A DNA stretch of 57,010 nucleotides, the filler included, from Streblomastix strix (taxonomy: Eukaryota), in the NCBI GenBank assembly GCA_008636045.1. It is 2 parts of 2 records of this genome, joined end to end, with 100 filler letters (N's around TTAATTAATTAA, not from the genome) between each part and the next. Parts side by side here need not be neighbours in the genome. Positions count along the whole stretch, not along the records: positions 28,575 to 57,010 come from SNRW01000124.1; 1 more part is not named here. One strand, 5' to 3'. Below, in pieces: positions 13,271 through 55,634 of this stretch; position 1 is the stretch's first letter; each line of letters begins with the position of its first letter. The translations under genes were made by a program, and so were the position numbers. The notes below the pieces were generated by a model. It saw only the letters and a program-made list of their open reading frames with translations, was not told the DNA's origin and ran no database searches.

Positions 13271-13272
13271 TT

Positions 13273-15010: not shown

Positions 15011-15032
15011 TCTGATAATTTAAAATAATAGT

Positions 15033-17815: not shown

Positions 17816-17861
17816 TACCTATAATCTAATTCAATATATTCATTTTATTAATTTTTAAATG

Positions 17862-28474: not shown

Positions 28475-28574
28475 NNNNNNNNNNNNNNNNNNNNNNNNNN
28501 NNNNNNNNNNNNNNNNNNTTAATTAATTAANNNNNNNNNNNNNNNNNNNNNNNNNNNNNNNNNNNNNNNNNNNN
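28475..28574. other. Assembly gap with artificial TTAATTAATTAA spacer
   Basis: 44 N + TTAATTAATTAA (28519-28530) + 44 N = exactly 100 nt. Confidence 0.95.
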
Positions 28575-33103: not shown

Positions 33104-33475
33104 AATAATATAGAGAAGACGGGCACTACACCAACTCTTAAGAATTCGTCTGAGAACGTGTTTCAACGAGTTATTGCTGTTTTAAAACGTGTTTCAACGA
33201 GTGATTGCTGTTTTTATTGTGTTTTCAACGAGTGATTGCTGTTTTTATTGTGTTTCCAATGAGTGATTACTGTTTTGAGAGCTAATTTTCAAAATCAACT
33301 CAAGGTCATATTCATCGAGTGATTGAGCTTAGTAGAGAGCTAAATACAAATATAATGCAGTGTGGTTGACATCGTTTTTGATGTCTTCTCGTGCTCATCA
33401 TACGGTGATTATATGTTAATGAATGTGATTAGAATATAAATAAAAAATAATTAAAATATTGGAAAATTAAAATAA
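33104..33475 (+). repeat. Left TIR with four ~30-bp internal tandem repeats
   Basis: Reverse complement of 55290-55634; repeat unit tttcaacgagtgattgctgtttt. Confidence 0.93.
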
Positions 33476-33954
33476 TTGAGTTATATTGCTATTTCGTGTT
33501 GAAAAATCAATTTTATTATTATTTCATGTTTCGCGTTAAATATTTTAGTATTTTCATATTAGTTATTATAATTTGATTTTATATTAATTTATAAGCTAGG
33601 TTTTGCATTCATAAAATATAATAATATATCTTATGTGATCTTCCGAGATATTTGCTAAAAAAATAATTTTCAAATTCAATTCCAAAGTTGATCACTAGAG
33701 TTTGATCCGATCAGATCGTGATTGTCAAACTTCTGAAAATTAATTTTTAAATTTTTATTTTTATGATCTCGATCACGATCATGATCATGATCAACTAATT
33801 GAAAATAATTTTTATAAAAATAATAATCAAGTTGGATTCGAACCTAAGCCGAAAATTTTTTGATTCACGATCGATACCAATGAGCAATAATAGCTATTTT
33901 AATGTATAAAATATATAAATTAAAAAATATTTATTATAATGAATTATAATATTA

Positions 33955-34783
33955 TCACCATAAATCTGTTTCATTAAATCTAATTTCTTATTATTATTCT
34001 TATTATTCAGAAATTTATTCTTATAGTAAAGTTTATATTTGCTCAGCTTATTCATCGTTAAATTTCTTTTACAGTAGATAACGGTTAATTCGTAGTTGCT
34101 CCTTCATCGATTTTCGACATACGAATTACAGTTAATTCGTATTTTCCAATAAAATTATCTGAAAATCTAAAAATTTTTTAAAAAATATTTTAATTTTTAC
34201 CTCAATTTTATTAAAAAATCATACGAATTATCCATATATACGAATTAACCGTAGTATGAATTAACCGTTATCTACTGTATTTATAGTCTCTTTTTATTGC
34301 TTTATATTTCTCAACTTACTTAATATTTTCTTGATGTTATTACTTAATAAATGAGTTTTCTGTTCGTAAAAGTATTAATTCCTCTAAATCTACTTATGGT
34401 GAAGTATAATTTATCTATGGCTTCTTGATTGTTTTCATCGGCTTTGGTTTTGGTATTTGCCTTGGATTTTCTACGATAATTTATTATTCATCTTATTCAT
34501 CATCATCGTTATTCATAGGATAATCTTCTGCTTCATCTTCAGCTTCATCACTGTTTTATTCAACATGTCTTTTTAATGTTCGTTTTGGTTATTTTGCTTA
34601 ACCTCCACCTGTTGCTTCTAATAATAGCTTAGTTTATTATGCTTGAGTCAGAGTTCTTGCTGCTTTCTTTCCTTCTTCATATACTTTGATCTTATCTTTA
34701 ACTTACATAATATATTCATTATTGAAATACTCGATTGAAGTTCCGTTTTTCATGAGATTCTTTAATGCTTATGCTTGATTCAT
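33955..34783 (-). pseudogene. Viral hypothetical coiled-coil/acidic protein interrupted by a MITE
   Basis: MNQAQALKNLMKNG...LEELILLRTENSF...; removing the MITE restores DYKQKKFNDE...ETDLW-TGA; homolog in the relic. Confidence 0.8.
34072..34277. mobile_element. Tc1/mariner-type MITE (206 bp), TA TSD
   Basis: TIR CAGTAGATAACGGTTAATTC / GAATTAACCGTTATCTACTG; TA at 34070-34071 and 34278-34279. Confidence 0.92.
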
Positions 34784-34824
34784 TTTATAAGATACTTATT
34801 GATTTTATTTAAACACAAAATTAT

Positions 34825-35541
34825 ATGACTACAATACAAACAAATCAAATTAAAGTTCATAAAAGCAAACATGCGAGTGTTGTTAAGAAAGAACTTTCAG
34901 AAGAAAATAATGCAAGATTATAAACAATTGATGAAGCTATTACGAATAGATTCAGAAAAACAGTGTAAATTCCAGCATTATAAATATATTCTTCGATTCA
35001 GACCCCACTACGAAGCAGAGATTTAATAATCGATGAAGAAGAACCACAACGAGAGATCTAAACTGAAAGACCACGAAAACATAAGTATAATATTAATAAA
35101 TATAAAGAAGTTCCACGTGAAACAGCTTAGATTGAACCAGAATAAGTTGTAAAGGATACATACTTATCTCATCCTAACTTAGAAGTATAGAAATTCATCA
35201 TTGATACGATTTGGAGATGTGTTGATTCACGAAAGAAAGGTGAAGATTTCATATTTAACTCTGACAACTATATTAAACTCTGGGCACTAATAACATAAGA
35301 AGGAGAGAAAGATATTAAAGTTGTAATGGAAGAACCACTGATGAGATATAATAGTTGTATATCAAAAAAATATAAGAAGAAAGAGATTGTAAGAGTTGAT
35401 GATGTTCTAATAAAGAATGTCTCAATTTCTAACATAGATAACGTATTATGGAATAGTATCGAGAAGCTATTTCGAGTAAATAAAGACTTTATTAGATTAT
35501 CTGACAAGCTAGAATCAGATATTTGTCCAGAAGATTTTTGA
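34825..35541 (+). CDS. Viral hypothetical protein (238 aa)
   Basis: Open under TAR=Gln; C-term NKDFIRLSDKLESDICPEDF resembles the relic at ~12150-12215. Confidence 0.75.
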
Positions 35542-35583
35542 AATCTATATCATTATGAAATTGTTTATTTTTGTTGAAAACTA

Positions 35584-36582
35584 ATGGAATAAGAAGCGTA
35601 ATAAATAACTGACTTAGATGATCCATCAGAAGAAGAACTATAATAAAAGAAATCAGAATATGAGAAGATGAAGAAATAAAAATAAGAAATAGAATCACTA
35701 TAGAAGTTGTAAAAATAAATAACTTAATAAATAGATAATGAAATAATAAAACATTTTGCTTACTTTAGTTAATTCTTTAAGAAAACATAAGTAGATTTAT
35801 CACATTTAGTAACATTGAACACAGCTTAAACTATTACTGGAACTAAATCATTTACGTATCAAGTTACAGCAAAATCTTTTAAAGAACCAGAAGGTACTAA
35901 TTAATAAATTTTGCTTGCAAATGGAACAAACATGAATCATTTTAATTCTAGACCTTATTATGATGCTGAATGTGTTGATGGAATAAGAATTTCCAAAAAT
36001 TTAGCAAAATAGACATTTGATTAGAATTAAAGCATATATCCTGGCTGTTCTAATACTTAGGAAAGTGGTGCTATAAGTGGATAATGGTCAATAAGAGCAA
36101 GTAAATTAAATACTTTATTAATTCATCCAAGTAATGATTCATAACATGGATTTGCTATGAGTTGTGATAGATTAATATTTAATGATCTCGTAATTTATCC
36201 TTCAACTTTATTAACTAATTATTGTAGTTCCATAACTTTGAATACAAATGTTTCAATTCTTTCAGAAATTTCGACATAATTCGTCTATAAGTGGTAAAAT
36301 ATGGTGTTTATTAACATGGTTCTAACAATATATGAGACATCATTCAGTTAGAAAGTAACTACATTAAGCATTCCATAAGATATTAGGCCATCACTAGAAA
36401 AATAACATCTTCCGCTTTAAGAAATTTCTCTTTCATAAGGTTCTGCTTATCCAACGAACGTTTGTTTAAGAATTAATGGTCCAACTGATAATTATTACTG
36501 GTAAGTATGGAATAATCAAAAAATAAGTTGGGCAACAGGAAATTCTGTTATATTTAATTGAATGTATTGTATTTCAACCTGA
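35584..36582 (+). CDS. Fibre-like protein 1 (coiled coil + tail-fibre motifs)
   Basis: LVTLNTAQTITGTKSF...SFKEPEGTNQQILLANG; GIRI...GQWSI module shared with fibre 2; first TGA at 36559, second at 36580. Confidence 0.7.
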
Positions 36583-36777
36583 AACTGTGTCATAAGTTTT
36601 AAGATTCAATAACTTTAAATATAATATATATCTCCACATTTTTGCAAGTTCCTCGTCTTATTTTTCTATGGCCTCTTTAATGAAATCCTCTATTTATTCA
36701 TTTGAATACTTAGACCAATGAAAATAACTTATTTAATTAATGTTTGATTTTTCTTCAGATTACTTTAATGATTCCAT
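36574..36777 (-). CDS. Small viral hypothetical protein (67 aa)
   Basis: Open ATG-to-TGA frame MESLKQSEEK...ELAKMWRYILYLK under TAR=Gln. Confidence 0.5.
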
Positions 36778-36991
36778 TTTAAAATTCTTTCTCCTACGAT
36801 AAACAAACTAATATATATATATATATAATTATATTAATTGGAACTAGAATCACATCAAAATAACTCCATAATTATTTTATTAATGCAATAATATCTGTTA
36901 ATTACTTAGGAATTGATAGAGAAATTATAGATACAATGAAGTTAACTCCATAAAATATAGAATTTATTAATATTATAATAATATTTAACAT
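36755..36991 (-). CDS. Small two-TM membrane protein (78 aa)
   Basis: MLNIIIILINSIFYGVNFIVSIISLSIPKQLTDIIALIKQLWSYFDVILVPINIIIYIYILVCL...; conserved in sequence and position in the relic. Confidence 0.7.
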
Positions 36992-37014
36992 ACGTTTGTT
37001 TTATAATAAATATA

Positions 37015-38073
37015 ATGTCGTTATCTGAGATATAATCTGTGACTTTCACCGATAATTCTATGTTAGATGAATATAAAACTAAGCCATTGACAAGGAATTC
37101 ATTATTCTTAATCAATGGGAATCATTATATTGTTGGTGCAGTTGGTTCAGGTAAAACAACTTTATTAAGTAAACTTATAAAAATCTATAAATAAAAAATC
37201 AATCCATTCATTTTATATTTCTCTAATTTTGGTGCAGATGAGACTATGGCATTGAATCTAAACTCTAAGAATATAGTCTTAACTAATATAATATATGATG
37301 AAGCTATGTATTTCCTTCCTTAATTTGATGAAATTAAATATTAAGTTAAAGAAATATATACATACTGGAAATTAAGTGAAGTAAATATATCGTACAAATC
37401 TGATTACATATAGAGAATGAAAGAAAGAATACTAATAATGAATCCAATAAAATAGAATCCAACACGAATTGCTTCTGCAACACCTGAATAATAATTAGAG
37501 AAACCTAAGGATTATGCAAGAAGAATTGCTTAGATATTTCATTAAGAATGTATCAATATCATAACTAAATATAGTGTTCCAACAATGAAAATGAGATTTA
37601 CTATTCCTGCTATGATTCATAACATATAATTCGAGAGGAAAATAGAAATATCATAAGATGATAGTGATGCTGAATTAAAAGTAACGAAGATTCCTATATT
37701 ATTTCATAGTTTACTGTTAAATTCTTTGTTAATATTTGATGACATAGGAAGTAATGCTGATATTTAAAGATTCTCATCTGGATTAGCTAAGACAATAACT
37801 CATCTAGTTTCAGACAGTAGACAAAGTAAAAATACTGTTTTCTTTGTTGCTTAACGGCCAAGTTACTTATTTAAAACTGCAAGATTATTATCTCATGTTA
37901 TGTATTTAGGAGTTAATCTTAGTGAAAGTGATTTAAAACAAGCTTACAAAGAGAATTCTATATAGAATCTTGACTTTGATGAGTTTATGTTACTGTATGG
38001 AACTCTTAATAAATATGAATTAATAATACTTAATAAATGGAAGAGTAAATATGAAATACTAAAGAACCAATGA
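37015..38073 (+). CDS. A32-like (FtsK-HerA) genome packaging ATPase
   Basis: Walker A GAVGSGKTT, Walker B LLIFDDIG, SDSRQSKNTVFFVAQRP (arginine finger and conserved Gln); 352 aa, no internal TGA seen. Confidence 0.9.
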
Positions 38074-38111
38074 TGTATTATATGATTCTATTTATTTTTC
38101 TTTATTCAAAT

Positions 38112-40182
38112 ATGACATTAGCTAAAACCTTGAGTTAATAATAGATCTAAGTTATTCGTTCTTTGATTTAATCTGATTTCCAATATTTGATATAATATTC
38201 ATGGAAATCATCAAGTTCCAATAGTTAATTATCAGAAAATGAATATTCATTGACAGTTGATGATTAAAACTCATTAATCTATGCATCAATAGATAATCCT
38301 TTGAATTACGTAATGAAATTGGAAACTAACGGTGTTATGACATTGAAGAATATAAATTTATTAAATAATGATTTCTTAGGTAAATTAACTACGTTAGAAT
38401 AAGAAGTTAAAGTATTATAATAAATATTGGGAACTGCAACTTATGATATTGGTGGTTTATAATAATAAATTAATGAAATTAATGATGAACTTAATAGATA
38501 AACACATTTTAGAGGATATTATTTATTGAACTCAGATATATAAAATTTACCTAATTCTGCCAATGGTGATTTTGCTTTCTCAGCTGAAAGTGGAACCGTA
38601 TGGATGTATGATTAGAATTGGTATAACAGTGGAGATATAGTTCCTGATTAAGTAACACCTGCAAATGATGCTACTTCATTAGTTAATAGTGGAACAGGAG
38701 TTGCAGGAACTTCAAATGAGTATTCACGAGGAGATCATAAGGATCCACTATAAGTTTCTGATGTTTTACCAAATAAAGATACATCAGTTGGTATTGTTGG
38801 ATAAGCTAGTTCTTATGCTAGATCTGATCATTAACATCCAATTCAGACAGTAGATACTATTCCTGTTAGTGATTCAGCAGATGGATCATACGGTACTGTT
38901 GATTCTTACGCTAGAAATGATCATTCTCATCCTATTAATGTCTAAACTAATGCTTTAATTGTACCAGTAGTTAATGGAGTTGAAAATAATGGTACTTCAG
39001 CTTATTATTCAAGACATGATCATATTCATCCATAGTAATTAACTTATGATGGTAATGTAACTGCTACTAAATTTATTAAATCAGGAGGATTACCAACTGA
39101 AGTTCTATGTGCCAATGGAGATACAACTACAATAGATAGTAAGTTATCTCGTACATATACAGGTAGTCGATGGATTAGATTATGTAACTTTCCTGCGGGT
39201 GATAGTGTTGGTAATCCATTCATTGAATTTAAAATATATATATATCTTATAATTCTGTTCAAACGATTAGATTATAGCCTAATTATACTGTCAATGGAAT
39301 CACTAATGTATATGGAATATTTAATGCTCCAACTCATATTGGTACATAATATGTGATTGAAAATGATGCACGTTAACAATTTCATAATCATTCAGGATCA
39401 AATCCTTCAGCTGTATATTCTGTATATATTCATTTAGAATCGGTTGGAACTATTACAATAGTAGTGTAAGATAAAAGCATTTAATATACCAATATAATCA
39501 CGGAGATACTAACTTAAGATGTGGTTACAGGAGTATCAAATTGAACAGTAATACCAATCAATTAAAACTATGGATATGGTGGTTTTATGTAAAATACATT
39601 ATAAGTTAATCCAAAATATCGAACGAAATCCAGCTATAATAATGGCATTAGAATTGGAAATTTTAGTATTGAATCAGCAATATATTTAGCCTGTAGTAAT
39701 ACAGCAATTAATACTGTACAAGCAGGTTAATGGGAAATAAGTAAAACAAGTGATAATGCACTTACTATAAACCCATCTTATCTACGAAAAACTGATCATA
39801 GTGTTGGTTAAGTATTAATAGTGATAGTTCAAAATTAATGTTTAATGGTAATGAATTAGTGAATGTCGGAACTGACTTAACAATTACAGGTAGAAAGACA
39901 TTTGCAGATACTACATTAGGCAATATTTAAATAAATCCTACAACAATATCATATGGTGAAGGGATAAGAATAGCAAATAGTCCCATTTTTAATGTTAGTG
40001 CTATTTATATTGGAACTTCTCCTACTAACACAAGCGGAGAGATTGCAGGCTAATGGACAATAATTAAAAGACCTAATGGTTCATTGATTATAAGTAGAAC
40101 AGCTGATTAAAATATAACTAATAAAGGATTAATGATATCAACTGATGGAAATACATTAACTTTCAATAGTAGAGTATTATGA
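38112..40182 (+). pseudogene. Fibre-like protein 2 with phage tail-fibre-type repeats
   Basis: Coiled coil; four G..xxY(A/S)RxDHx(H/D)P repeats; KFIKSGG...VLCANG; QTITGRKTF; two GIRI...GQW modules. Frameshifts at ~39240 (TA run) and ~39810; TGA at 39542. Confidence 0.8.
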
Positions 40183-40219
40183 AAATGTAATTATTTCTCA
40201 ATTTATTTTTCTTAAAGAC

Positions 40220-40669
40220 ATGTCAAAACCTCTCAAATAATTATTAGCTGAACTTGCAAAAGCAAACTGTGAAGATGAAGATTTAATAAGAACAACGATA
40301 GAAACACTATAGAATCAGCTTATGAAAAGTAAATAAGATTCATAACATATATTACTTAAAGAATTAATAAAAATTAATAAGTAATTCACAACTTAATAGA
40401 GTAAATTATAGTTAATTAAATAGTTTGCTGATGATGAAGACTATAAAAATAAAATATATGGTGAGAATAATAAGTACTATGCTCGTGAATATAATCAAAT
40501 CAAGAAGAAGATGGATTTGAATCAATAGCCATAATAAATAAAGAAATATATTATATCTGAAGCAACTTATGATGAAAAATAGATATATAATTAATTTGTC
40601 TTGGATAATGATAATCAACTATTTTGTGCGTACTATCAATTAACTTAGCTTAATGTATCTAAATAATGA
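40220..40669 (+). CDS. Viral hypothetical protein (149 aa)
   Basis: Open frame MSKPLKQLLAELAKANCEDEDL... under TAR=Gln. Confidence 0.65.
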
Positions 40670-40872
40670 AGATAACCTATGACTTCACAAGTTTTTTCCG
40701 ATATTAGACCATATCTTTCGTTACATTCTTATTTTTTCTATTCATAGAACTATTATTGATAAACACCTAATTCCTTATCATCAATCAATGCTTCAAATAT
40801 TTAAAACACTTCATAATCAGAAGCATTATATTCTTTTCTTAATGTTTAAGCAAATTCATACAAATATTCCAT
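40636..40872 (-). CDS. Small viral hypothetical protein (78 aa)
   Basis: Open frame MEYLYEFAQTLRKEYNASDYEVFQIFEALIDD... Confidence 0.55.
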
Positions 40873-40919
40873 TTGAAAAATAACAAAAATTTTAAATTTA
40901 TTATTATAATCAAATAAGA

Positions 40920-41488
40920 TCATATAATTTCTTGAATTTATTTACTACAATTTTGGTAGTTTTATCATTAATATCTCTTATCATAACATAATATGCTTAC
41001 TATTTCTTATTTTAATTCAAATGTAGTTTCCTGTATTAAAGTCAATTGTAAAACCAGAAATCATTATTATCATAATAATAAAACTCAAACTTATAAACTC
41101 CATAATCCGTTATTTCAATAGCTTCATTCGATAATTCATCAACATGTTCATATTAAACTCCATTGCCGGAATTTCTATTCAACTAATTTTCTGAGCGAGT
41201 AACCCATCGTAAATTTTCGAGTCGATTATCTGATTTGTTACGATTAATATGATCTATTTCAGGTAAATTTTCAGGATTTGGAATGAATTATAGTGCAAAA
41301 ACTCGATGTAATGTAAAATATACTTAATTAAGGAATAATGATGTATAATCATCATGATTCGTTCTAGTTATTGGAATATATCCATTAGATCTCTTTCTAA
41401 TTGTATGAGGTTCATCTTACATAATTTCATAATCATTATCTACAATCAATATTTACCAATTATTTTTTTCAATTAATTATTCAGTCAT
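40920..41488 (-). pseudogene. HNH (HNH_3, I-HmuI-like) endonuclease
   Basis: LHRVFALQFIPNPENLPEIDHINRNKSDNRLENLRWVTRSENQLN; in-frame TGA at 41042-41044, downstream of the nuclease domain; 3' end approximate. Confidence 0.85.
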
Positions 41489-41548
41489 TTTTGAATTTGA
41501 TAAAAATAATTTATAAATTTAATGTATTTTTATTATTATTTTTAATTA

Positions 41549-41755
41549 TCATTTTTTATTTAAATGCCTATCTACGGCGCCAGATATGTTGCCTATAGTT
41601 CCCATGATCTAACCAGCACCTGGATTCAACATTGAAACGGGGCCTGAAAGTGTCCCCGTTACCTTATGAAGTGTCGGGGCTACCCAGCCTGCCACCTTCT
41701 TTATACCGCCTAATATCTTACTTCCGAAATTTTTCAAACCAGAGAAGAATCCCAT
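41549..41755 (-). CDS. 68-aa amphipathic peptide, adenovirus protein VI-like (putative membrane-lytic virion protein)
   Basis: MGFFSGLKNFGSKILGGIKKVAGWVAPTLHKVTGTLSGPVSMLNPGAGQIMGTIGNISGAVDRHLNKK; divergent from the MCP gene; conserved in the relic. Confidence 0.75.
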
Positions 41756-41844
41756 ATTGAATTATAATTTGATTTTCAAGTTAGTGTAATTGTTTGAATA
41801 ATAAAACTTACTTACAGTTTTAAATTCTAAGTAAATCAAACTTA

Positions 41845-43806
41845 ATGAGTTTCTCAGCAAGTGATTATATATAGAAATTAGCTCACGTTTAGCATTCTGA
41901 TTATATATCTTCGTATTAAGCAATGTCAGAAGTATTGAGATAGGCATCTATTCATCCATAGAGTTTTAATATAAGTAGATTAGAATTCTTTGATTAACCT
42001 ATTAATTAACTTACAAGTGATGGATAAAGATATATAAGAGCTCCATTACGTACAAAAAATTAAGGAATTTGCTCTATGGTATAATCATGTTAAGTCTGCT
42101 GGTAAATAACAATTCCTGGAGAGAGATTGGCACTATAACTTAATTTAATTCCAAGATTATCTACAGCTCTAAATTCAAAGGCAAGAGCAAGAGCTAGAGT
42201 AAATTTCAATGAATTAGATGATCCTTAAGCAGATTGGGTGCGAACTATGTAAATTGGTGCAGAAGAAAATGAAAGGCCAATCAATCCTAATGAACATGTT
42301 AAGTTCTGGCTTGGTTATTCAACAGCTTGTGGACCATTTTAATAAATAGCAATATGTAAAGATAATACAAAGCTATGGGAGACATCAATATATGCAAGAG
42401 AATAAGCTGTGATAGCTGTAAATTGATTATCTGACTCAAGTACAAAAAATTCTGTGAGTGTACCACCTTTAGAAACAGTAGTTAGTGGTAAAAGACATTG
42501 TGGAGTTTTCATAGATATTCCTGTTGAAGCTTTTGCTACTGGAAGCTTTAATTATTTAATTCCATATCCAATAACAATTGCTGGCGTGCTTGATTTAAAC
42601 TAGCTAAATCCAATATTCAATTCATTTCCTGTGTTAACACGTAATTATGCATCGTTATATTTATAGTTAAGGACTTAAGATTTCTTGTAAGATCTGAAGG
42701 TTGTATGGTTAAATAAGTCTAATACGATAACTAACTAACATCTTTCTTATTAAATGATTCCATCAGAGAAACCAGATCTAATTTTCTTACTTAATACAGC
42801 TGGAGCTGCATATTCAGGATTTTCAATAAGATTAGTTAAAATGGAAGGAAAAGCTCCTGATGAAAGAAGACATACAAATTCAATAAGTTAAATTAAGGAT
42901 GCAAGATTCACTAAGTTAGATATTAATAATGTGTGTTTCAACATGGAAAATGAATAAGCAATCATTGATATGATAAGAACTCAAAAAATATTGAATTTCC
43001 TAACGTAAATTATACGTACATAATCAAGTAACTTCCCATTTCGTGGATTTTCAGAAAATGGTGGTTCAATGTAGAGTATGATGTCATATTCAAATATAAA
43101 AGCAATGTTTATTACATTTGCATTGAACTAATATCCAACTTGGATGTTTCCTGTGTTATTTTAGAAGTTCAATTTGGAAATTGATCAGCGACATATTATT
43201 TAATAAGAATATGTATCGTTGAATCCAATGGTCACAGGATAGATGTTCGAATGTTTTGTTGAATAAGACTTAGTTTCAGCACCTTCAGATTTATATCATT
43301 CATTGAATTTCCAAAATCAAACAATAAATGAATCAAATGGGAATTACTATGGTTATATGTGCGCAAGTTATATTGATTGAGAGAATGTATTCTATAATAC
43401 AACGTTATACATAGGAAGTAAAGCAGTAAAAATATATTATCCTCATAAATTTATGCTTGCATGGAAGATGGCAACTGATGATTCATTTATGAGAGGATAT
43501 AATTCAACAAAAATGGGAGCAAGAACTAATATTCAAGTTACTTTATAAGGGAGTATAACTCAAAGAATAATAGATAATTCATAGATACTTGATGCAGTTC
43601 TTGGGATCTAAGATGATTAGAATAATCTTTTATAATTTATTGCAACAAGAGCTTATCCTACTCCAACTAATGCTTAGATAACTCCTTAGATGCACTATCT
43701 CTGTGATGCTATCATTAGATTTACTTTTGATGAAGCACCTGATCCATCGGTTTTAAACTTTGAAATCATAGGTGAAGTTGGTGGAACTATGCTAAGAAGT
43801 GGATGA
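41845..43806 (+). pseudogene. Putative major capsid protein (double jelly-roll), ~650 codons
   Basis: Size, beta-rich composition, strong conservation with the relic and adjacency to the penton-like gene; in-frame TGAs at 42424 and 43378. Fold inferred, not shown. Confidence 0.65.
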
Positions 43807-43973
43807 AAAGATGGAAAAATAAAATATGCTTGTTATAATTATTTTTGCAATTATAAACATGGAAAATTAAATAGTTTCCTTTGCTGAATTAATAATTATT
43901 AATGATCCAATATTAAATATACCAAGTTAAGTAAAAATAAGAAAATTAAAAGGTATCTAATTATTTTGAATGC

Positions 43974-45455
43974 TCACTAAGATTGAATTTCTAATAATAA
44001 ATTATTGTACATATCCATATATTAATTAATTATTTTTCTTCCATAATTATCATATAATGTGAATATAACAGCTTTGTTTTAGCCTATCATACATTCTTAA
44101 GATAGCATATTTTAACCCCATAATACTGGTGCACCAATAAGATTTTACTTATAACATACATTTGAGAAGCCTTAACCACCTATTCCTTACAATGTGGTAC
44201 CTTATATCTAGTTAGAGACTGAAATAATAAGCATCTGAGGATATTATTGGAAATTACCAATGAAAGGACAAAAGATAGGTGTATCAGCTAAAGAACTCTA
44301 AGAATCATACTGAATTTTATAATATCATGTTTCTACATCAATGAATTTCACTGATGAAGCATTATTTACGACAGGATTTGCAGCATTCTCAGATAATCCA
44401 TCATATATATCTAATGCTCCTGTTAATTATATGAATAAATTAGGAGATAAGGTAATTCTCTTTGGTTACCGTAGAATTTAAGTATTTGCTTAATAATTCA
44501 TAGTTGAAAACTGAGTTAATACTTCAGGAACATACTATCCATAATATTAAAGTCTGTTAACTGCAGTATATATAATATCCCAATCTTTAGAATTCTAACC
44601 AGGAATTGAAGATATAATTCTTACTGGATATGTATAGATACTATTAATGATTGATTACATAGTTGGTTATTAAATATTCATTGGTAAAGCTATTACTTCT
44701 AATATTGTACTATTATCATTGACATTATATTATTTCCCATGTAAGTATCTTATTTTTTCCGAATGAACTGATGTTGTAGTTAAAAATAGTTCTTTAAATG
44801 TTGTGAAGTTATTTATCGTAGAGCAATATAAACGAATAATATCAATTAATCTGTAGTAACAACCATTGGATTACATGTAGTACTTATAAAGAAATGAATC
44901 TAATCTTAGATTAATATAGTTTATTGCAAATGATACTATATCAGAGCCATAATTAATATTTTGTCAGTATTTTCCATCTGATAACTTCTAAGTAAATTCA
45001 TTTGATGCATTATTAAAGCAAATTGCTCCACGATTACTAGTGTTCGTCATATGAAAGTACTATTCTTAAGAATCTACGAATTCATCTAACTATGCTGAAG
45101 TTATAACCATGGTTAAGGGTGCATACTAATATCCTTGATAATTCTATTCGTTAGTATATCTATTGTTGATAGTAGTATTGAAGTTTATTTTTATAGTTGG
45201 AATCTCAGTTATCTCTGCTAATTTGTATGTTCCATTAGGATTCATTGATTATTCAAAGTATTTCTTATTTACTGATGATTGCATACCATGAGATATCTCT
45301 ATGTAATCTTGATTCTAGTAATAAGTGAGATTTATGGGCATGTTATTAAGAGAATTTACTTAAAATTACTTAGAACCACTGGGAATTGTTGTTTTCCAAG
45401 TTACATAATCAGAATCTGAGTCAGATCAGAGTATTTATAAGCTAAGTGATGACAT
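43974..45455 (-). pseudogene. Putative minor capsid (penton) protein
   Basis: ~490-codon frame ending VIFTLYDNYGRKI...LLLEIQ, similar to single jelly-roll penton C-termini; in-frame TGAs at 45426, 44964 and 44325. Confidence 0.6.
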
Positions 45456-45489
45456 TACTTTAATATCAAAAATAAATATACTGTTGTGT

Positions 45490-45711
45490 TCACTTTTCAT
45501 TAAGGTATTATACTAATTTTAAGAATGATTCTTATTCACCAGTATCTTATGCAATACCAATGGTTTCCTTGAGTTATTCCATCTTAAGACGTTTATTATA
45601 CTATCGTAAGAGAAATCTTAGTTCAATTTCAGGATCTGATTTAGTTGCAACACATAATAATGAACTTATAAAATGTGAGTAAACAAGAAATTCTTCTATT
45701 GTAATGTGCAT
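45490..45711 (-). CDS. Small viral hypothetical protein (73 aa)
   Basis: MHITIEEFLVYSHFISSLLCVATKSDPEIELRFLLRQYNKRLK... Confidence 0.45.
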
Positions 45712-45873
45712 ATTCTTTAAAAATATGTAAAATACCTATGATTTTCAAATATTTTTACTGTTTAGATTAATAATCTATACAATAGGTAAAATGCAAGATG
45801 GAATTGTTATTAAGATATCCCAAGTCATTAGAAATTTGATTTACTTTGTTTACATTTAAAATAAAGTAAGTAA

Positions 45874-46950
45874 ATGTCTAAGAAAGGAAAGAAGAGTAGT
45901 AAAACAACTTATAAACCTAACAAATACGAATAATAGTTATCTAAAACTATATTTACTTGTCTTGATGAGCTCATTAATAGTAATATGGAGAAATTAAGAA
46001 AACATCAAGCTGGTGGAGATTATAAATCTAAGATGAAATCTGGTGGTAAATTTAGAACACTTAGATATTAAAGATATAGACCTGAATTAGTTGCTGAAAT
46101 ACCAGAAATAATATTAAGCAGTGGTCTGAGATTTAAGACAAGAATGACTCGTTCATAACTAAAACCACTTGAAGAAGAAGTTATGCATTGAATTCCAAAT
46201 ATATCAGAAAAGGAAGCTAGGCTTGAAATATCTTAAATAACTGATCTTAAAGATAGACGGTAAATTTATACTGAGCTTTTCCCAAAAAGCATATTATCAG
46301 ATCTTTATGAAACTACTTTCAGAGTAAATAAAGAAGGTAGGTTAATGGAATAGAAATATATTGAGAAAGCTTAGAGTTATAAGGACTATATTAATGCAAG
46401 ATTAAATTAACCATAGATGGATTTTGGATAGAGAGGTCCAGTAGTTACACAAGAAGAATAATTGAATGAATTGTTGAATTTCGGATCATAAAAGTAAAAA
46501 GAGTAGGTAACTAAGGAACTAAACAAAGAATATTCTACTAATAATGATGAACCTCTTCCAGATTCAGCTTTCGTTTCAGAAATTGCTGGAGAATAATCAT
46601 TAGCTTATGAAAAATTAACGGATGAATAACAATAATAAATATAATCAGATATACTTGCTGCTATTAATCTCAGTACTGTCTATGATATTGGAGCTTTAGA
46701 TTGGGGTAGACCACCAATTAATGATATCTATGGTAGATCTCCATTTGAAACATACAAAGCCGGTTGTAAATATGATTAATTTGGTAATCCTCAACCTTAT
46801 ATGAAGAAACCAGTAGTTCCAGTAGGTAATAAAGATACAAAGATGAAGAAAAATTATATTGCAACTTCACTACTAATTCAAACAGCTAACCCATAGTCTG
46901 ATTTACATAAAAAATTAACTAAATCTATGAAAAATCATAAGAAAAAATGA
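45874..46950 (+). pseudogene. Viral protein with basic termini (possible core protein)
   Basis: MSKKGKKSSK...AGG...SGG...KNHKKK; 358 codons, one in-frame TGA at 46189. Confidence 0.65.
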
Positions 46951-46986
46951 AATTTCCTATATTTTATACATTAATTCATACATTTT

Positions 46987-47259
46987 TCAAATACTTTCGT
47001 TTTATTATTCTTATTATTCAAACTTGTTTATAAATTCATGTATTCTATCTATTTCAAGAGAATCTGGAATAATAATACTTTATAATCTCTTTATGAGAAA
47101 TAATTAAGAATCTGAAACATAATTAATAAATTATCTCTTTTATGCTTATAATCTAATTAATCTTTATTTCCTTAACTGTTTCGCAACTTCAATTGCTTCT
47201 TCCTTGGTTGAATATTTGCATTATCTTCCATCTCGAATATTCATATAAACTTAACTCAT
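46987..47259 (-). CDS. Small basic, putative DNA-binding protein (90 aa)
   Basis: GRQCKYSTKEEAIEVAKQLRKQR motif; open frame. Confidence 0.55.
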
Positions 47260-47295
47260 TTTTTTGTTAAAAATAAAATATTTTTATAAAAGTTT

Positions 47296-48615
47296 TCAGT
47301 TAAAAAATTATTATTTAAATTTTAAAAATTAAGGTTAATTTAATTATTATTCATTTTCACAGATGTACATTGTATAATATATTGGTACAGTTATCTTATC
47401 TAAGTCAGAAAATGGTTTTAATAATAAGCACTCTACATTACCACCGTCATATTTAATAAACTTAGCTAATTCATTGAAATTTCTTCTTTACTTCATATAA
47501 CGATGCATTGTACGTAAGTAATCAACATGAATCATTAAAATATTTCCAGGCTTATATTTAGTTAATCCATCTTCTTATTATTTTTATTTCACTTCTCGTA
47601 ATTTTTTATCATTCTTCCTTATGAAATAAGGTTCAAGCTCTTATTAACTATTCACTTACTTCGGTGTAAATTAATTATCAAATGCACCATGAAGAGTATC
47701 GTTGTAAAGCTCAACTATTTGTTACATTAACTTTGGATTAGAAAACGATCTATCGTCTTATCCAAAAGCATTTCTTATTGTTCTTATTACTGAATCAACA
47801 ACACGATTATGATTCGTTAATTCTTGAGAACCGTTTACAAAATAAGTCTTAATATCATTCTTGTTATAAAATTACCTAAGTTAATTACTTGCAAATCCTT
47901 TTTCGCCATCACTTCTGATATGTGTTACATTCTATGTTTAAACCAAATTCTACAATGCTTTTTCAATAACCTCTTATGATTTACTATGTAATGGATATAC
48001 AACAAGATATTTGGTATTGATGTTAATACAGAATAAATAAATTTAATTAATTCTAACTAACTCAGGATTCATTGAAAATACAATATCTATTACCCATGAA
48101 CCAATGTCATATGAAAAATATGGTCTTTTAAATTTTTAAGGTAATTATTTAATTTGACAATCAGGAACTACTGTTTATTTTTTATTATCTTCTAGTTTAA
48201 CTCCATGTACTTATTCATAAGCCTTCACTTTGGATTTGAATGGAAATTTTATTGTCTATTATTATGTTGTTTATTCTTATGGTAATCTAATATTTTATCT
48301 CTTCTTACCTTTCTACAATTCTTTTGCAATATAATCATCAAACCAGTCTTAAATAGTTTTTCCACCATATTGAATCTTATCAGCATTCTCAATGATAACT
48401 GGAATTTCTCTGTCACTGTTTTGAATTTATATTTCATCTACAAATTCTGTAAGATTTAATCTCTTAGGTTATTTTAACATGGTTTATATCGATAATTTCA
48501 TAGAATCTTCAGCAATTTCTATTTACTTCTTGGTTTTATCAAATCTCTTGAGTAATTCATCAAGAATTTATGCTTATGATTTACTTCTACGAGTATGTAA
48601 ATTGTGCTAAGTCAT
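47296..48615 (-). CDS. Retroviral-type (rve) integrase, DDD variant (439 aa)
   Basis: GSWVIDIVF, YLFCININTKYLVVYPL, HIRSDGEKGF, HNRVVDSVIRTIRN, YNDTLH; frame appears intact. Confidence 0.9.
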
Positions 48616-48664
48616 AAATTTTAATAAACAAAAATAAATTATATATATTATATATATTTTTATT

Positions 48665-51600
48665 TCAAGGCATCAACATCTTATATTAAATTTTATATTT
48701 ATCAGCAGATATTCCTTCAATATACGGACAATAGCATTAATTTTCTAATACAATCATTTTGGTATGAACTCCTGTTATTCAATTCTTAGTTGTATTGATT
48801 CTACTCATCTTACTGAATACTTCATCATCAGAATTTCTCTCAATATGCTATCTTAACGATGTATTCTTACCTTTAACTATAGTTCCATTCTTAATATTGT
48901 TTTCATAAGCATCTTTATTAATTTATGGATTCAATTTTAAACTCATTCCTTTAAGTTTAATAATAATTGGATCTTTCTTATCAAATTCTTATCTTAACCA
49001 GTAATTCTTTGGTGCTAATGCTATAAGAGTTGAACCACAGTGTTCATATGCAACACCCAATGGTTTCTTTTCATTTTCTATTTGTAATTCTTTTATTTTA
49101 AGTTTTCTTTCTTCAAGTTACTCAATTTTATCTAATATTGGTCAACTTTCATTAGTGATTACTTACTTAAGCTTTGGGAAGAACTTATATAATTTTTAAT
49201 CATAGAATTATTTGTCTTTAAAAACAGTTGAGAATCCTTATTTATAATTTTATTTAGGATCTCCAGCAACTGCTAGCTTCATAGAATCTGTATCACAGTA
49301 AATAAGATGAACTCGATTCATATCAATCATTGGAGTTAAGAAATTATAATAGAAGTTCATAAACCAATACTTAGAACAATCTAACACTGCAAATGCAACT
49401 TATAAACAGGTTTTACAATTGAATTTCTATTATTCAAATTCAACAGCATATATGTTATCTGCAAACATACGATCACTTTTGAATCTACCATTGAGATGTT
49501 TCCTGAATGTTTCATGTATATCACATAGCTTAATATCTGAGAAATGCTCTTGATTCATACCATCACTTCCATAAGAGCTATTCATAGAAATCTTACTAAA
49601 TTATTCTCCTCCGGAATTTCCTTCAATCTTCGATTAGATACGTTATTACATGAATTTCCTAACAAATGATTCAAATCCAATAGGCTTAGAGAATGTCAAA
49701 ACACACTTAACAACGTCAATTATGAAATGACAATCATCAATAAGTAACCAGAGATAATATGAATAGAAGCACATATACATATTCATTGTTGATAATAAAA
49801 CAGTAAGTTTGCATTATTATCCACCAGTTTTCATATTATTATCTTTCATGTATTGATGCATGAAGTCGCCAATAACAGATTCTAATGTTTTATATTTATA
49901 TTTTCTTATTATTGGTGAACAATTAATATAATCATTAATATATTAATAATCAATATGACCTTTAACTTCAGCAATGAACACAGTTATGTTATCAATATCT
50001 GATTTCTTATTGGAGAATATTAATGAATTATTAATAATTTTCAATCTAAGTTGTTTTTACGACGCTTTAGCGTCTTAATCCCTTAGGGAGTACTTATCAC
50101 TAACACACTCAATTCTATCTAATTCATAACCTGGCATATAAATTCTGTGACCGGTATATTTAATGAAATCGTGAGGAATTCCACTCATTACAGATGGATA
50201 TAATGAATTAAAATCATAACCAGTAACATGAGTCATTACATAATCAAGATCATAACTTACGACATACTAACCTTCTAGTTTTAGTTTATTAATTTGAGTT
50301 TCATCTTTTACGTTATATATATGAAAAGCATTTGCTAATCCACCTGTAATATTTGGTCGTAACTTATGATATATATCTTCATCTGTTAATGGCATTGGTA
50401 TACATTTTGCTAAATAATATATTTTTAGTTATATTAAGCCTTTAGTTACGAAAGGATCTCTATTTCCTCTCTTTACATTACACCATTAACAAGCTAATTA
50501 TACATTATTTTTACTATGACCAAGACTATTATCGATTCTATCTAACGTTGGAGGATTCTTATTTGTGAGTCTTACTTCACAGAACCAGCATTAACCTCCT
50601 TTAATAATATCACGGAAATATTCAAAATCTGCTTAATTAACGTTGTCTTATATATCTCTTCCTGCATTTGTATCTTACGTATTATAATTTGAAACTTTCT
50701 AATTCCAATGATCTTAAGTTAGTACAAATGGAGTAAATTATTTTAATGCTGGATCATCTTTTGTAGTATACTTTGAATTCAAGTCTAAATCATCACAACA
50801 CATCTTATACTTAGTTGCATTTGCACAGCTTGCCATAGTTAAGTAATTAAACATATCAAGATCGTTATTAAAATTCATTTTAATTAAGTTATCAATAGGT
50901 TCTATCATGATAAATGTGTCTAGTTCATTGTAATATTATAAATAATCCCATCTATTATTAAATTTCTTAATTGTATCGATAACTTAACCATGTTAGTTAA
51001 CAATTATAACGATTTAATCTAGTTAATAATCAAAGTAATCAGAATTTGATAGCTTTTGTTCAGTTAACTCGTTAAAAAAACTACTCTTATTCAAATGGTT
51101 CAGTAATATTTAAAACTTCATCATAGTTGTTTGTATTGAATGCAGTATAAGGGAATATTCCTTTGTTATCACTTCTTTTGTTGGATTTCTTACCGAAATC
51201 ATTGACAAACTCTTTAAGTTTCATTTTTGTAACGAACATCTCAGCGTCTAAGAATTAAATTCTAACGCCGGTAATCTTGTGACGAACTTCAACTCGTTTA
51301 ATAGGAGAGAAGTCACAAAGATAATTGGTTATATGCCACTTAAGGCTTGTCAAATATGGTAATACGAAAATCATATCAAAATATGCGGAATTGAAACCTA
51401 AAACTGGAACAGGAATATCATATGGAACATCAATATCATCATACATATTATCTGCTTTAACTTATTTAGCTTCTTCAAACAAAGCGTCGAGCCATTACTC
51501 TATGAAATTTAAATCATTGTTATTGAATCTAACATCGATATAGATTGATTTTAATCCTTTCTTTGATTTAATTGTTGATGCAACTGATAATGGAACTAAT

Positions 51601-54600
51601 GCAGAATTCTGAAATGAATTGCATATATCATCATCTTTATTAACAGATTTACCAAAATATTTATTAATTTATTCTTCCATAGTTTAAAAGTCATAAATTA
51701 TTTAATATTAAGTTGGTTTAAAATTCTATAATTCTTAACGTGACCAAAAACATTCGTAAATTTTAATACCTGTGATGTGTGGAGCAAATGGTATTCAATT
51801 CCCCGATAACATAACTTACTTACCTTTGTTTTATTTACGCTATTCGATATGTCTTCTTAAATCACGATTCCAATTTCCAAGCTTGTTATTTACTTTCATT
51901 GCATGTAACTTACATATTGGACAATAAGCTAAGCCTGTTAAAGCTTATGTATCTGAAATATATAAGAAATGAAACTTATCTCTGAAATGAACAAGCAATA
52001 TATTGAAATCTCTTGCTACTTCTTTAATTGTATTGTTATTATCACAATTGACAGCGATATTCCGATGAGATTACGTAGAATCTACTTTTTTAACCAATGT
52101 TGGTAAGAAATTCTTCTTATAATATTCTTAATTGGTATTTTTAACTAATGATTACAAGTAGTATGGTGAAAATGATTTATTCTACAATTGTTTACGTTTA
52201 CAATCAAAATTTTCTCCTGCTTTAACTGTTAAACCAGGAAGTTCTCTTACTGAACCATAAATTTCGTTCATGATAGCTTTATCTTCTTATGGTATCTACC
52301 TTAATGAATCAATAGATTGGAATTACGTAAATAATGATGCTTCATTGTTATCTTTATCTGATATATAATTATGAACAATTGCGTTTTCAAGTCCATTTAT
52401 TAAAATAACAGCTTATTCAAATGTTAAATTAATATTATCAACATTCTCTTAAATCTCACGATAAGCTTTTTTTTCATATTTGATAACATTGATATCAAAG
52501 CTTAATGAATTAAATACATCAGCTAAACTATTCAAGTTCTTCATAAAAAATGAGTTAATTTATCGATTATCAAATACTTTATATTCAAGTATTTCGCTTG
52601 TTGCTATACTACGATGAGATAATCTATCGTATTATTTATCTTTGATTTTAGAAAATGGTAATACAACATTTCTTAATTTTCCAATTTTATTCTCATCATT
52701 ACGATCTACTTTCTCATCATACTTCATTCTCAATTAATCCCATGATGGCAAATCATTTTCTGGATATGCACAAGCGAATACGTCAACAGCATATTTTTCA
52801 TTAGATATTACTGCTACCATTGAATTATTATCTAAACAAATACAGCCTGTGTTACAATAAATATGTAGTCCACCATGTGTAGTTTCAACTAAACCAACAT
52901 TTAACTTCGAATCTTCAATTTTCCTTAAGATATCTTCTCTTATTGTTGTTCTCTCTGACTTTTCAAGTTTTTTATTGATATCTATGTCAACGATAGCAAG
53001 AAATGGACATTTTGCTATGTTAACAGCTAAGCCAGTTCCTTCCTAATATTAATGTTCTTTTTTATAAGCATCAACACATATTTTTTCTTCATCAGTTAGT
53101 TTCCATGGTTCTTTTTTACAATAATCTGGTCTTTTATCAGCTTTTTCATAATTATACAATGGTACACGAGCAAGTATTGATGTTCGATCTGAAATGGCTT
53201 AGTTATAATATTCAATGAAAGAATTCTATATTTCCATAGCATTTTCGTTGATTAATCGTTGTTTTATCTCTTTAACTTTTACTGGACCACCAAGTTTTTC
53301 GAGACAATTATTTAGCTTTTCACCAATTGTCTCAAATACGAAATGATCGTCATCTGCATGAGGAAGTACAGTTTTTATCATATTTTTTGTTTGAATCTAC
53401 AATTATTTATGTTTATCTTTATCATCATTCACGGTGATTATCTTTTCATCAGGTTTAAATACAAAATCAAGAAAGTAATTATCATATTTTTCTTCTTTAA
53501 TATTTTCTTCTTTCTTATGATGTATTCGATTACCTTTTGAATTTAATTTTGGCTATATTTCAACATCTTATGTTGGTTCTTCATCGAAATCTAAGTGATG
53601 ATAAGCATAAACACAAATATTAATATTGAATATATTTGCGAGTTACTTACCTTCAGATGCAAGATTGAATCTTTGATAATTTTTACAAAATTCTTCAAAA
53701 TTTTTAATTAACTCAATACCAATAGCAGAATAAAACAACTTCATTAATCTCTTTCCTTCTGCTACTCTAATATTACAAGATATTCGTTTATTTTGAATAT
53801 CTTGTAGAGATATGAATGACAATGCATCAAATAAACAGTTGTTTCTATAATTCTTATTATCAACGAACTTAACTTCTTATTTTTTAATAAATTTTTATAA
53901 ATCTGCAGGAGCTGCACCTCCAGATCTAGCTCAATATACAACTACTACCATTGAAACAAAAGCAATGAATCTAGTTTTAGTATCTTCAAGAGTTCTTTCC
54001 TAATCTTCTATTATTTTTGCTGGTAAGTATTAAATAAATTGCTCTAATTTCTCCTTTGAAGTTATTTATTATTCAATGTTTAATGCGTGTTAGATATTAC
54101 TGTGTGGTTATCTTGTACTATTAGTAACTACTTATGCTTAATCTTCATCATACTTTACTTTCTCTACTATATAACCAAAGTCAAATGCAATGATGAAATT
54201 ATTCAATTATAACTCAAGTTCACCAACTCTTCTAACATGATTTTCAATATCATACTAACTTACAATATGATTAGTATAATAATGACGTGTTGGTTTAAAA
54301 TCATCAGATTATCTTCTTGAATATGATTTATCTGTAGTTTCTTTCGGATATCTTTGACGAAATCTCTATACTTCATGTCTAAATAATGCTTAATTAAATG
54401 GTTCTGATAACATCAATGCATCAGCATCTTCAAATTCAATTTCTCTAAATCTCATATATTAATCTAGTCTTCTAATATCTTCTATTATCTCTTCATCAAG
54501 TAATTTGAACGTACGTAATTCAAGATCTGTCAGATTATTGAATTCATGATGAATTTTTCTATGTCTTTCTTAAAAAAATTTCTTTTCATTCTGTTACATT

Positions 54601-55130
54601 CGAATTGATCTCTGTTAAACATCATTGTTAATATCTTAACGTTCATATTAGTCAAAATTATTTTTGTGTTTTTATTATGGAATATCATTTTGAGTAGTAA
54701 TTTCAGCCCATTAATTATCAATTACTTGTTATGGATCGAATAACGTAGTTAATGACACATCAACTTATTGATTTTCAGTTTTTCTTCTTGGCTGATGCTA
54801 TTACTTATATTGCTGTAATTCATTTTAATAATCTTAATCAGTACGCTTATGAAAATATCTTAAATTTTCTTGATCAATCTATTCTTATCTTATTTCTTAA
54901 GGCTTTTTCTTTCTTCTTCATACTGGATCAGGATGTTATTAACGATAATGAATTGTACTAGTAATTCTTTATCGTAATGAATCTGAATAAGCATACGAAC
55001 CAGGAACTCCATATTATTTAAGATAGTGATGAATAATATTACAACTATTTACATTGGTCATATGCGATAAATCAAATCCAAAAAGTTTTCCAACGTCAAC
55101 AATCTATTTTTTATTGTATTACGATGTCAT
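48665..55130 (-). pseudogene. Protein-primed family B DNA polymerase polyprotein: terminal-protein-like region, vOTU split by an AEP Prim-Pol, exonuclease, HNH/EndoVII-like insert, PolB
   Basis: Exo motifs YDF(Q)T, GFNSAYFD, YNELD; Pol motifs GYDFNSLYPS, KISMNSSYG, YCDTDS; vOTU NNCLFDAL...HFLYI; Prim-Pol IVDID, TTHGGLHIY, VVLPFS; CWFC...TLDRIDNSLGH..NNV. In-frame TGAs at 54918, 53931, 51795 and 49142; +1 shift in an A7 run at 51074-51080. Confidence 0.92.
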
Positions 55131-55289
55131 AGCAAAACTGTCTTTAACGTTGTTAAAATGATATTTTTCTTCAAAATTAAAATTAATTTTTGGAATAAAT
55201 TTTTTGATTTTAAAAATAATTTAATTATATTTATTTTTAATTATAATAAATTTCAATTTCAGATATTTTAATTATTTTTACTTATTATT

Positions 55290-55634
55290 ATTTTTATTTT
55301 TATTTTCCAATATTTTAATTATTTTTTATTTATATTCTAATCACATTCATTAACATATAATCACCGTATGATGAGCACGAGAAGACATCAAAAACGATGT
55401 CAACCACACTGCATTATATTTGTATTTAGCTCTCTACCAAGCTCAATCACTCGATGAACATGACCTTGAGTTGATTTTGAAAATGAGCTCTCAAAACAGT
55501 AATCACTCATTGGAAACACAATAAAAACAGCAATCACTCGTTGAAACGCGTTTTAAAACAGCAATCACTCGTTGAAACACGTTCTCAGACGAATTCTTAA
55601 GAGTTGGTGCAGTGCCCGTCTTCTCTATATTATT
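55290..55634 (-). repeat. Right TIR with three ~30-bp internal repeats
   Basis: Reverse complement of the left TIR, lacking one repeat unit. Confidence 0.93.

What the first reader, a model, noticed from the sequence alone, without database searches (positions are those of the whole stretch)
33104..55634. Complete Polinton-like endogenous virus with an unusual gene set, written in the host's TAR=Gln code
Seen: TIRs, TSD and about 19 tightly packed intronless genes that read open only when TAA/TAG = Gln; for example, the conserved Gln of the ATPase VAQRP motif is TAA. The set combines integrase, pPolB, ATPase and capsid genes with phage-like fibres, an HNH nuclease, a membrane protein and a pVI-like peptide. 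I could not find the adenain/Ulp1-like maturation protease typical of canonical Polintons. Inference: a long host-adapted, probably distinct virus lineage of a metamonad-like protist.
Basis: partly seen in the sequence, partly recalled or inferred. Interest (0 to 1): 0.8.

Follow-up and report, generated by a model that had tools for sequence, protein, structure and literature searches.

The report
Decayed protist virus, primase inside polymerase
A full-length but broken Polinton-like virus, of a kind already reported from the termite-gut protist Streblomastix, sits in this DNA and is written in the host's TAA/TAG=glutamine code; its giant DNA polymerase gene carries an inserted primase domain that some sister copies lack, which likely lets the virus start DNA copying in a second way.

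Summary
The element is real: 22,531 bp, terminal inverted repeats of 364/333 bp (6 substitutions), a 5/6 target-site duplication, about 18 genes over 90% of its length, readable only with TAA/TAG=Gln. It is full-length but not intact: MCP has 2 premature TGA stops, the penton-like gene 3, pPolB 4-5 plus a frameshift. Named capsid and pPolB homologues are all Streblomastix strix proteins, and host-code endogenous viruses of S. strix are published (PMC10120064). Missing maturation protease, fibres, HNH and a lytic peptide are ordinary for PLVs. Two things look new. First, the ~2,150-aa pPolB carries an in-frame ~480-aa AEP primase-polymerase (fold match to pRN1 and NrS-1 prim-pols, catalytic residues kept), taken from a D5-like primase-helicase without the helicase and inserted between the putative vOTU Cys and His. 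13 of 18 S. strix homologues carry it, 4 lack it, and its presence does not follow the flanking tree. Second, the 653-aa MCP seems to be a second Streblomastix capsid lineage, separate from the published Trichomonas-like cluster, with standard-code relatives in metagenomes. The vOTU identity and the primase's role are inferred. Verdict: new variant of a known kind.

The parts
33104..55634 (.). Endogenous Polinton-like virus, 22,531 bp, full-length, pseudogenised
33098..33103 (+). Left target-site hexamer TGCCAA
55635..55640 (+). Right target-site hexamer AGCCAA (5/6 identical to the left)
33104..33467 (+). Left TIR, 364 bp, with a 31-bp subterminal tandem unit (one more copy than on the right)
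55302..55634 (-). Right TIR, 333 bp, 6 substitutions against the left
34202..34783 (-). ORF, 193 aa, acidic/basic, no family
   Evidence: fragment also in the older relic
34765..35541 (+). ORF, up to 258 aa, no family
   Evidence: 44% match in the older relic
35584..36561 (+). Fibre-like protein 1, 325 aa, open; shares a repeat with fibre 2 (fibre label is inference)
   Evidence: no significant family hit
36574..36777 (-). Small ORF, 67 aa, no family
36755..36991 (-). Small hydrophobic, likely membrane protein, 78 aa
   Evidence: hydropathy peak 2.61 and 53% match in the older relic
37015..38073 (+). A32-like packaging ATPase, 352 aa, open; Walker A 37135, Walker B 37729, VAQRP 37846 with Gln=TAA
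   Evidence: Pox_A32 E 4.7e-4, below cut-off; 28% to L001 ATPase, E 1e-27
38070..40182 (+). Long fibre-like gene, broken by two frame changes and a TGA
40145..40669 (+). ORF, 174 aa, no family
40636..40968 (-). Small ORF, up to 110 aa, no family
40907..41488 (-). HNH endonuclease, one internal TGA at 41042
   Evidence: HNH_3 E 1.7e-13
41549..41755 (-). 68-aa amphipathic pVI/cupiennin-like peptide starting Met-Gly, next to MCP
   Evidence: 37% to a peptide beside the MCP of L001; lytic role is inference
41845..43806 (+). Major capsid protein, 653 codons, internal TGA at 42424 and 43378
43974..45455 (-). Penton/minor-capsid-like gene, internal TGA at 45428, 44966, 44327 (name inferred from position and size)
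   Evidence: 22% to a 701-aa L001 protein, E 3e-7
45490..45711 (-). Small ORF, 73 aa, no family
45874..46950 (+). ORF with basic N-terminus, 358 codons with one TGA at 46189 (or two genes)
46987..47259 (-). Small ORF, 90 aa, no family
47296..48615 (-). Retroviral-type integrase, 439 aa, open
   Evidence: rve E 3.9e-5, below cut-off; acidic motifs at 48093, 47916, 47802
48665..55130 (-). pPolB polyprotein, about 2,150 codons: N-terminal region (TP inferred), vOTU-like halves, AEP insert, Cys-rich knuckle, exonuclease, endonuclease VII insert, polymerase motifs A/B/C at 50218/49594/49300; TGA at 54920, 53933, 51797, 49144, 48781 and a frameshift near 51074
52012..53452 (-). In-frame AEP primase-polymerase insert (about 480 aa) with helical C-terminal domain; motifs DxD, GGxHxY and D kept; absent from some sister copies
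53453..53930 (-). N-terminal half of the putative vOTU domain, Cys at 53837 (identity inferred)
   Evidence: motif and position; fold and alignment tests inconclusive
51940..52011 (-). C-terminal strand of the putative vOTU domain, His at 51971 (identity inferred)
50452..50695 (-). Endonuclease VII/HNH-like domain inside pPolB
   Evidence: phrog_1035 E 2.2e-11

Best explanation
This is a full-length, now broken copy of a Polinton-like DNA virus in a Streblomastix-type oxymonad genome, written in the host's TAA/TAG=Gln code, whose protein-primed DNA polymerase gene carries an inserted AEP primase-polymerase domain that likely serves as a second, primer-independent way to start or restart DNA synthesis. 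Shown: TIRs, near-perfect 6-bp TSD, code, gene set, private stops, the insert's AEP fold and catalytic residues, its origin among oxymonad D5-like primase-helicases, and empty alleles at the same site. Inferred from known Polintons: the integrase inserted the genome; an intact copy would replicate from terminal-protein primers at the TIRs by strand displacement, package DNA with the ATPase into a double jelly-roll capsid with penton and fibres, and enter cells with the amphipathic peptide, which starts at its helix and so would need no maturation protease. Inferred for the insert (about even odds): it sits in a loop between the putative vOTU Cys and His, both kept, so the protease would still fold and release the terminal protein, while the tethered primase primes the displaced strand or stalled forks. 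The insert has moved between pPolB lineages or been lost at least once. This copy was inactivated after insertion by point mutations, many of them one-step changes to TGA.
For: Ends and code. Host: all 120 listed MCP hits and all 12 hits of the pPolB N-terminal region are S. strix proteins; flanking host exons also use TAR. Decay not read-through: MCP codon 194 is Ser in 24 of 25 full-length homologues, other stops face Arg or Gln, contigs show other letters at stop sites and lack the extra base at 51074. AEP: 103 representatives hit; 28 of 40 scanned carry the NrS-1-type helicase DUF5906; one is named 'putative Poxvirus D5 protein' of Monocercomonoides; DxD, GGxHxY and a third Asp are at least 90% conserved in 65 rows; model confident over most of residues 240-620 with Foldseek hits pRN1 primase E 7.5e-5, ORF904 E 5e-4 to 7e-4, NrS-1 E 3e-3. 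DxD/His/Asp kept in 8 of 10 insert copies. Empty alleles: P0129, P0131, P0235, P0236 and two contig joints skipping 52012-53452. Inserts form one group nested among S. strix helicase-bearing AEPs (100/99); empty alleles are rejected as one clade on the flank tree, p-AU 0.003. Capsid: homologues P0002 and L001 match double jelly-roll clusters at TM 0.47-0.61 over 356-494 residues.
Against: The vOTU identity is not shown: no Pfam hit, model pLDDT below 50 there, hhalign and shuffled alignments against the window's own OTU protein not significant. No activity, transcript or virion is shown. My MCP model was poor (pLDDT 48) and gave no capsid match. Empty alleles exist, so the primase is dispensable. 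Homologues are automatic gene models from a fragmented assembly; P0128 looks chimeric and P0237's insert status rests on a few terminal residues. The TSD has one mismatch and no empty host site was seen.
Confidence: 0.7

Rival explanations
1. The AEP domain is a tolerated passenger: a mobile piece of a co-resident primase-helicase that landed in frame in a loop and spreads among pPolB genes by recombination or by homing helped by the nearby endonuclease VII/HNH, with no benefit to the virus.
For: Presence does not follow the flank tree; endonuclease domains lie 1.3 kb away and in a separate gene; AEP genes are proposed to be mobile (10.64898/2026.10.13.758929 section 13); empty alleles exist.
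Against: Catalytic residues kept in 8 of 10 copies that differ by 15-25%; the helicase was dropped and the frame kept at both junctions; 13 of 18 homologues carry it even when an empty allele is the query.
Confidence: 0.2
2. The insert breaks the vOTU protease and marks a switch of replicase: the virus is moving from terminal-protein priming to primase priming, an intermediate between pPolB and AEP-helicase replication modules.
For: The insert separates the putative Cys and His by 622 residues instead of 139-194; module swaps between pPolB and AEP-SF3 are common in PLVs.
Against: Cys, His, the upstream TP-like region and long TIRs are kept in insert copies; the site is already length-variable in empty alleles.
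Confidence: 0.07
3. TGA is read through and the element is an intact, active virus.
For: Most breaks in MCP, penton and pPolB are in-frame TGA rather than frameshifts; ATPase and integrase are open.
Against: Homologues have different residues (Ser, Arg, Gln) at the TGA sites; pPolB and the fibre gene also have frameshifts; TGA ends the genes; contigs of other copies lack these changes.
Confidence: 0.02

Closest known systems
Metamonada (MMN) group endogenous viruses of Trichomonas vaginalis and Streblomastix strix, MCP cluster 40 (PMC10120064)
   Same: Oxymonad host, TAA/TAG=Gln coding, high copy number (820 MCP hits reported), divergent double jelly-roll MCP; a Parabasalia cluster is among the two nearest Atlas clusters.
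   Different: MCP about 650 aa against 562 aa for the published representative; none of four S. strix cluster-40 proteins named in the supplement rows I saw is among my 120 hits, and six of my hits are absent from the held, cut supplement; no AEP inside pPolB was described in the passages read.
Polintons/Mavericks (class Polintoviricetes)
   Same: TIRs, 6-bp-type TSD (recalled), pPolB with N-terminal extension and endonuclease insert, RVE integrase, ATPase, MCP, minor capsid (10.1101/2024.03.18.585575).
   Different: No Ulp1/adenain protease found; highly divergent MCP; pPolB about 2,150 aa with an AEP insert; host code.
PLV AEP-SF3 (D5-like) replicases; pRN1 ORF904 and phage NrS-1 primase-polymerases
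   Same: AEP fold, catalytic motifs and helical C-terminal domain.
   Different: Helicase absent; the domain lies inside a protein-primed polymerase rather than replacing it.
Oxyrrhis marina PLV helicase SF1-pPolB and Tlr1-like pPolB-helicase fusions (PMC12721341)
   Same: pPolB fused with a second replication enzyme.
   Different: The partner there is a helicase at a terminus; here it is a primase inserted internally and polymorphic among copies; this protein is longer than the 1,486-1,718 aa reported there.

Membership tests
Polintons/Mavericks (Polintoviricetes) | Terminal inverted repeats | tested here: met
   364/333 bp, 6 substitutions
Polintons/Mavericks (Polintoviricetes) | 6-bp target-site duplication (recalled) | tested here: inconclusive
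   5 of 6 bases match; no empty site seen
Polintons/Mavericks (Polintoviricetes) | Protein-primed PolB | tested here: met
   DNA_pol_B_2 at its cut-off, E 5.8e-6; motifs A/B/C; gene broken in this copy
Polintons/Mavericks (Polintoviricetes) | RVE integrase | tested here: met
   rve E 3.9e-5, below cut-off; acidic motifs
Polintons/Mavericks (Polintoviricetes) | A32/FtsK-like packaging ATPase | tested here: met
   Pox_A32 best hit, below cut-off; homologue beside the MCP in L001
Polintons/Mavericks (Polintoviricetes) | Double jelly-roll MCP | tested here: met
   Through homologues only: Atlas models of P0002 (78% identical) and L001 match capsid clusters, TM 0.47-0.61; my own model was uninformative
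Polintons/Mavericks (Polintoviricetes) | [quoted passage not shown] | tested here: inconclusive
   Candidate conserved in L001; no family hit; not folded
Polintons/Mavericks (Polintoviricetes) | Ulp1/adenain maturation protease | tested here: not met
   No Pfam hit in any ORF scanned; no motif in six frames; a very divergent fold is not excluded
Polintons/Mavericks (Polintoviricetes) | TP and vOTU domains at the pPolB N-terminus | tested here: inconclusive
   Cys and His motifs in the expected order; fold and alignment tests not significant; TP not tested
Metamonada (MMN) PLV group | Endogenous in a metamonad and, in S. strix, using TAA/TAG=Gln | tested here: met
Metamonada (MMN) PLV group | MCP linked by BLASTP to cluster 40 | tested here: inconclusive
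   No cluster-40 sequence could be given to a tool; named members absent from my hits; Atlas lists separate Preaxostyla and Parabasalia clusters as nearest; short motifs look alike by eye
AEP primase-polymerase (insert) | AEP fold | tested here: met
   Foldseek pRN1 primase E 7.5e-5, NrS-1 E 3e-3; ORF904 by profile E 0.02
AEP primase-polymerase (insert) | Catalytic DxD, His and third Asp (motif scheme recalled) | tested here: met
AEP primase-polymerase (insert) | Primer synthesis | not testable with these tools
   needs an assay

The most novel reading that the evidence does not exclude
A so far uncatalogued lineage of small DNA viruses, with standard-code members in the environment and a code-shifted branch in Streblomastix, whose pPolB became a two-primer replicase: a working AEP primase grafted into the vOTU protease of a protein-primed polymerase and still moving between copies, a caught-in-the-act intermediate of the pPolB/AEP module swaps seen across Polinton-like viruses.
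Probability: 0.4. Interest if true: 0.75.

Novelty: new variant of a known kind. Interest (0 to 1): 0.55.

Why it matters
Replication modules of Polinton-like viruses swap often between pPolB and AEP-helicase, but how is open; a single gene holding both, with paired insert and empty alleles in one genome, makes the step testable. A protein-primed polymerase with its own primase was not found in the papers searched. The capsid lineage with standard-code relatives gives an outgroup for placing the unclassified Metamonada viruses and for studying how a virus changes genetic code. The headline of the finding, a host-code virus in this protist, is already known.

Full report
1. Observation. The element spans 33104-55634 (22,531 bp, 26.8% GC against 25.4% for the rest). 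Its inverted ends align over 333 bases with 6 substitutions; the left arm has one more 31-bp unit. The flanking hexamers are TGCCAA and AGCCAA, best read as a 6-bp duplication with one change. Under the standard code no ATG ORF of 80 aa or more exists in 32000-57010. Under code 6, about 18 genes cover 20,184 bases; 344 of 408 Gln codons in 14 segments are TAA or TAG, including the VAQRP Gln, which faces Gln in a standard-code homologue. Flanking host exons use the same code.

2. The copy is broken. MCP has TGA at codons 194 and 512, the penton-like gene three, pPolB five plus a frameshift near 51074, the long fibre gene two frame changes, the HNH gene one TGA. Codon 194 is Ser in 24 of 25 full-length homologues; three pPolB stops face Arg, Arg and Gln; at a fourth, and at the frameshift, contigs of other copies differ from the window; the fifth (48781) was not checked. 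This is decay, not read-through. ATPase, integrase and the short fibre are open.

3. Host and prior art. All 120 listed hits of 121 for the MCP N-terminus (longer proteins only) and all 12 hits for the pPolB region are Streblomastix strix proteins; three of the four listed holder runs are termite-gut metagenomes. PMC10120064 (passages; supplement rows) reports 820 MCP hits in S. strix, a Metamonada group, and that these viruses use the host's code. 10.64898/2026.06.19.733378 (passages) says Metamonada elements remain ungrouped and that Gosseviruses are the only major PLV group with a core cysteine protease. Fibres and cupiennin-like peptides are known (PMC12220804, PMC8502044; passages). I found no protease in 28, 11 and 21 proteins scanned or by motif in six frames. 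So code use and gene set are ordinary for this host.

4. Capsid lineage. My AlphaFold model of the MCP was poor and matched nothing. The Atlas models of P0002 (78% identical) and of L001 match double jelly-roll clusters at TM 0.47-0.61, with Preaxostyla and Parabasalia clusters nearest by features. Three metagenome contigs out of 391 candidates encode a relative. L001 uses the standard code and shares MCP (hhalign E 1e-56), ATPase, the penton-like gene and the amphipathic peptide beside MCP; its MCP cluster has 9 members from three sources. The published S. strix representative is 562 aa; none of the four S. strix proteins named in the rows I saw is among my hits, and six of my hits are absent from the held file, which is cut. 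By eye it shares short motifs with this MCP. A sister lineage not counted in that paper is therefore likely but not shown.

5. The polymerase. Read through, pPolB runs 55130 to about 48665 (about 2,150 codons). It has polymerase motifs A-C and an endonuclease VII insert, a type known in Polintons (10.1101/2024.03.18.585575, parts 2-3 of 5 and passages). Upstream, a Cys motif (53837) and a His motif (51971) lie where that paper places the vOTU protease. Between them is a 1.44-kb in-frame insert. Four S. strix pPolBs run straight across the site and two contig joints skip it. With an empty allele as query, 13 of 18 hits carry the insert (one is the window's own protein), 4 lack it, 1 is unclear. 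The insert finds 103 representatives; I scanned 40, chosen mostly for length, and 28 carry an NrS-1-type helicase behind the matched part; one is annotated as a D5 protein of Monocercomonoides. The AEP motifs are nearly invariant and kept in 8 of 10 insert copies. The model is confident over the insert and matches pRN1 and NrS-1 primase-polymerases. In a 36-row tree (6 rows dropped for lack of the anchor motif) the inserts group together inside S. strix helicase-bearing AEPs. In a 12-row tree of the upstream flank, empty alleles are rejected as one clade (p-AU 0.003), so the insert was gained and lost, or transferred, at least twice; these are automatic gene models and two assignments rest on partial proteins. 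The vOTU identity itself failed every quantitative test I ran and is an inference from motif and position.

6. Mechanism. An intact copy would be integrated by the RVE integrase, copied by terminal-protein-primed strand displacement and packaged into a double jelly-roll capsid (inferred from Polintons). The amphipathic peptide begins at its helix, whereas adenovirus pVI needs cleavage (recalled), which fits the missing protease. I think the insert most likely works as a tethered primase for the displaced strand or for restart; a tolerated mobile passenger is the main rival, a broken protease with a change of priming mode a lesser one.

7. Novelty. Eight literature searches and the passages read, including sections 12-13 of 10.64898/2026.10.13.758929 and PMC12721341 (passages), describe AEP-helicase and pPolB-helicase fusions and elements with two replicase genes, but no AEP inside a pPolB. 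Preprint supplements were closed and subscription papers are not searched. Verdict: new variant of a known kind, interest 0.55.

Noticed in passing
window 11097-22047: An older, more decayed relic of the same virus family: matches to nine genes including MCP, peptide, fibre, membrane ORF, ATPase, pPolB and penton at about 25-80% identity, in another arrangement.
   Followed up: partly
window 28475-28574: Two runs of N: the window joins two contigs, so the relic and the element need not be truly adjacent.
   Followed up: no
window 2566-5936: An OTU protease ORF (2753-3844, minus; Pfam OTU E 5.6e-5) next to transposase-like frames, inside nested inverted repeats (2566-2612/5890-5936 and 4545-4788/5126-5368): probably nested DNA transposons carrying an OTU domain.
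   Followed up: no
window 561-2324: Intron-rich host AAA ATPase gene resembling Vps4 (name recalled) that uses TAA/TAG in frame.
   Followed up: partly
window 7603-7736 and 26127-26530; 31900-32043 and 32528-32671: Further inverted-repeat pairs, one pair 18 kb apart around the older relic and one MITE-like pair 1 kb left of the element.
   Followed up: no
window 33680-33880: Cluster of short GATC-rich repeats just inside the left TIR, in a gene-free stretch; possible origin or regulatory region.
   Followed up: no
L001 5380-7293: Three tandem ORFs of about 200-220 aa that look paralogous and have no Pfam hit, between the ATPase and penton-like genes of the standard-code relative.
   Followed up: no
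window 43438-48068 and 47588-53839: Single contigs join across these spans, suggesting internally deleted derivatives of the element.
   Followed up: no
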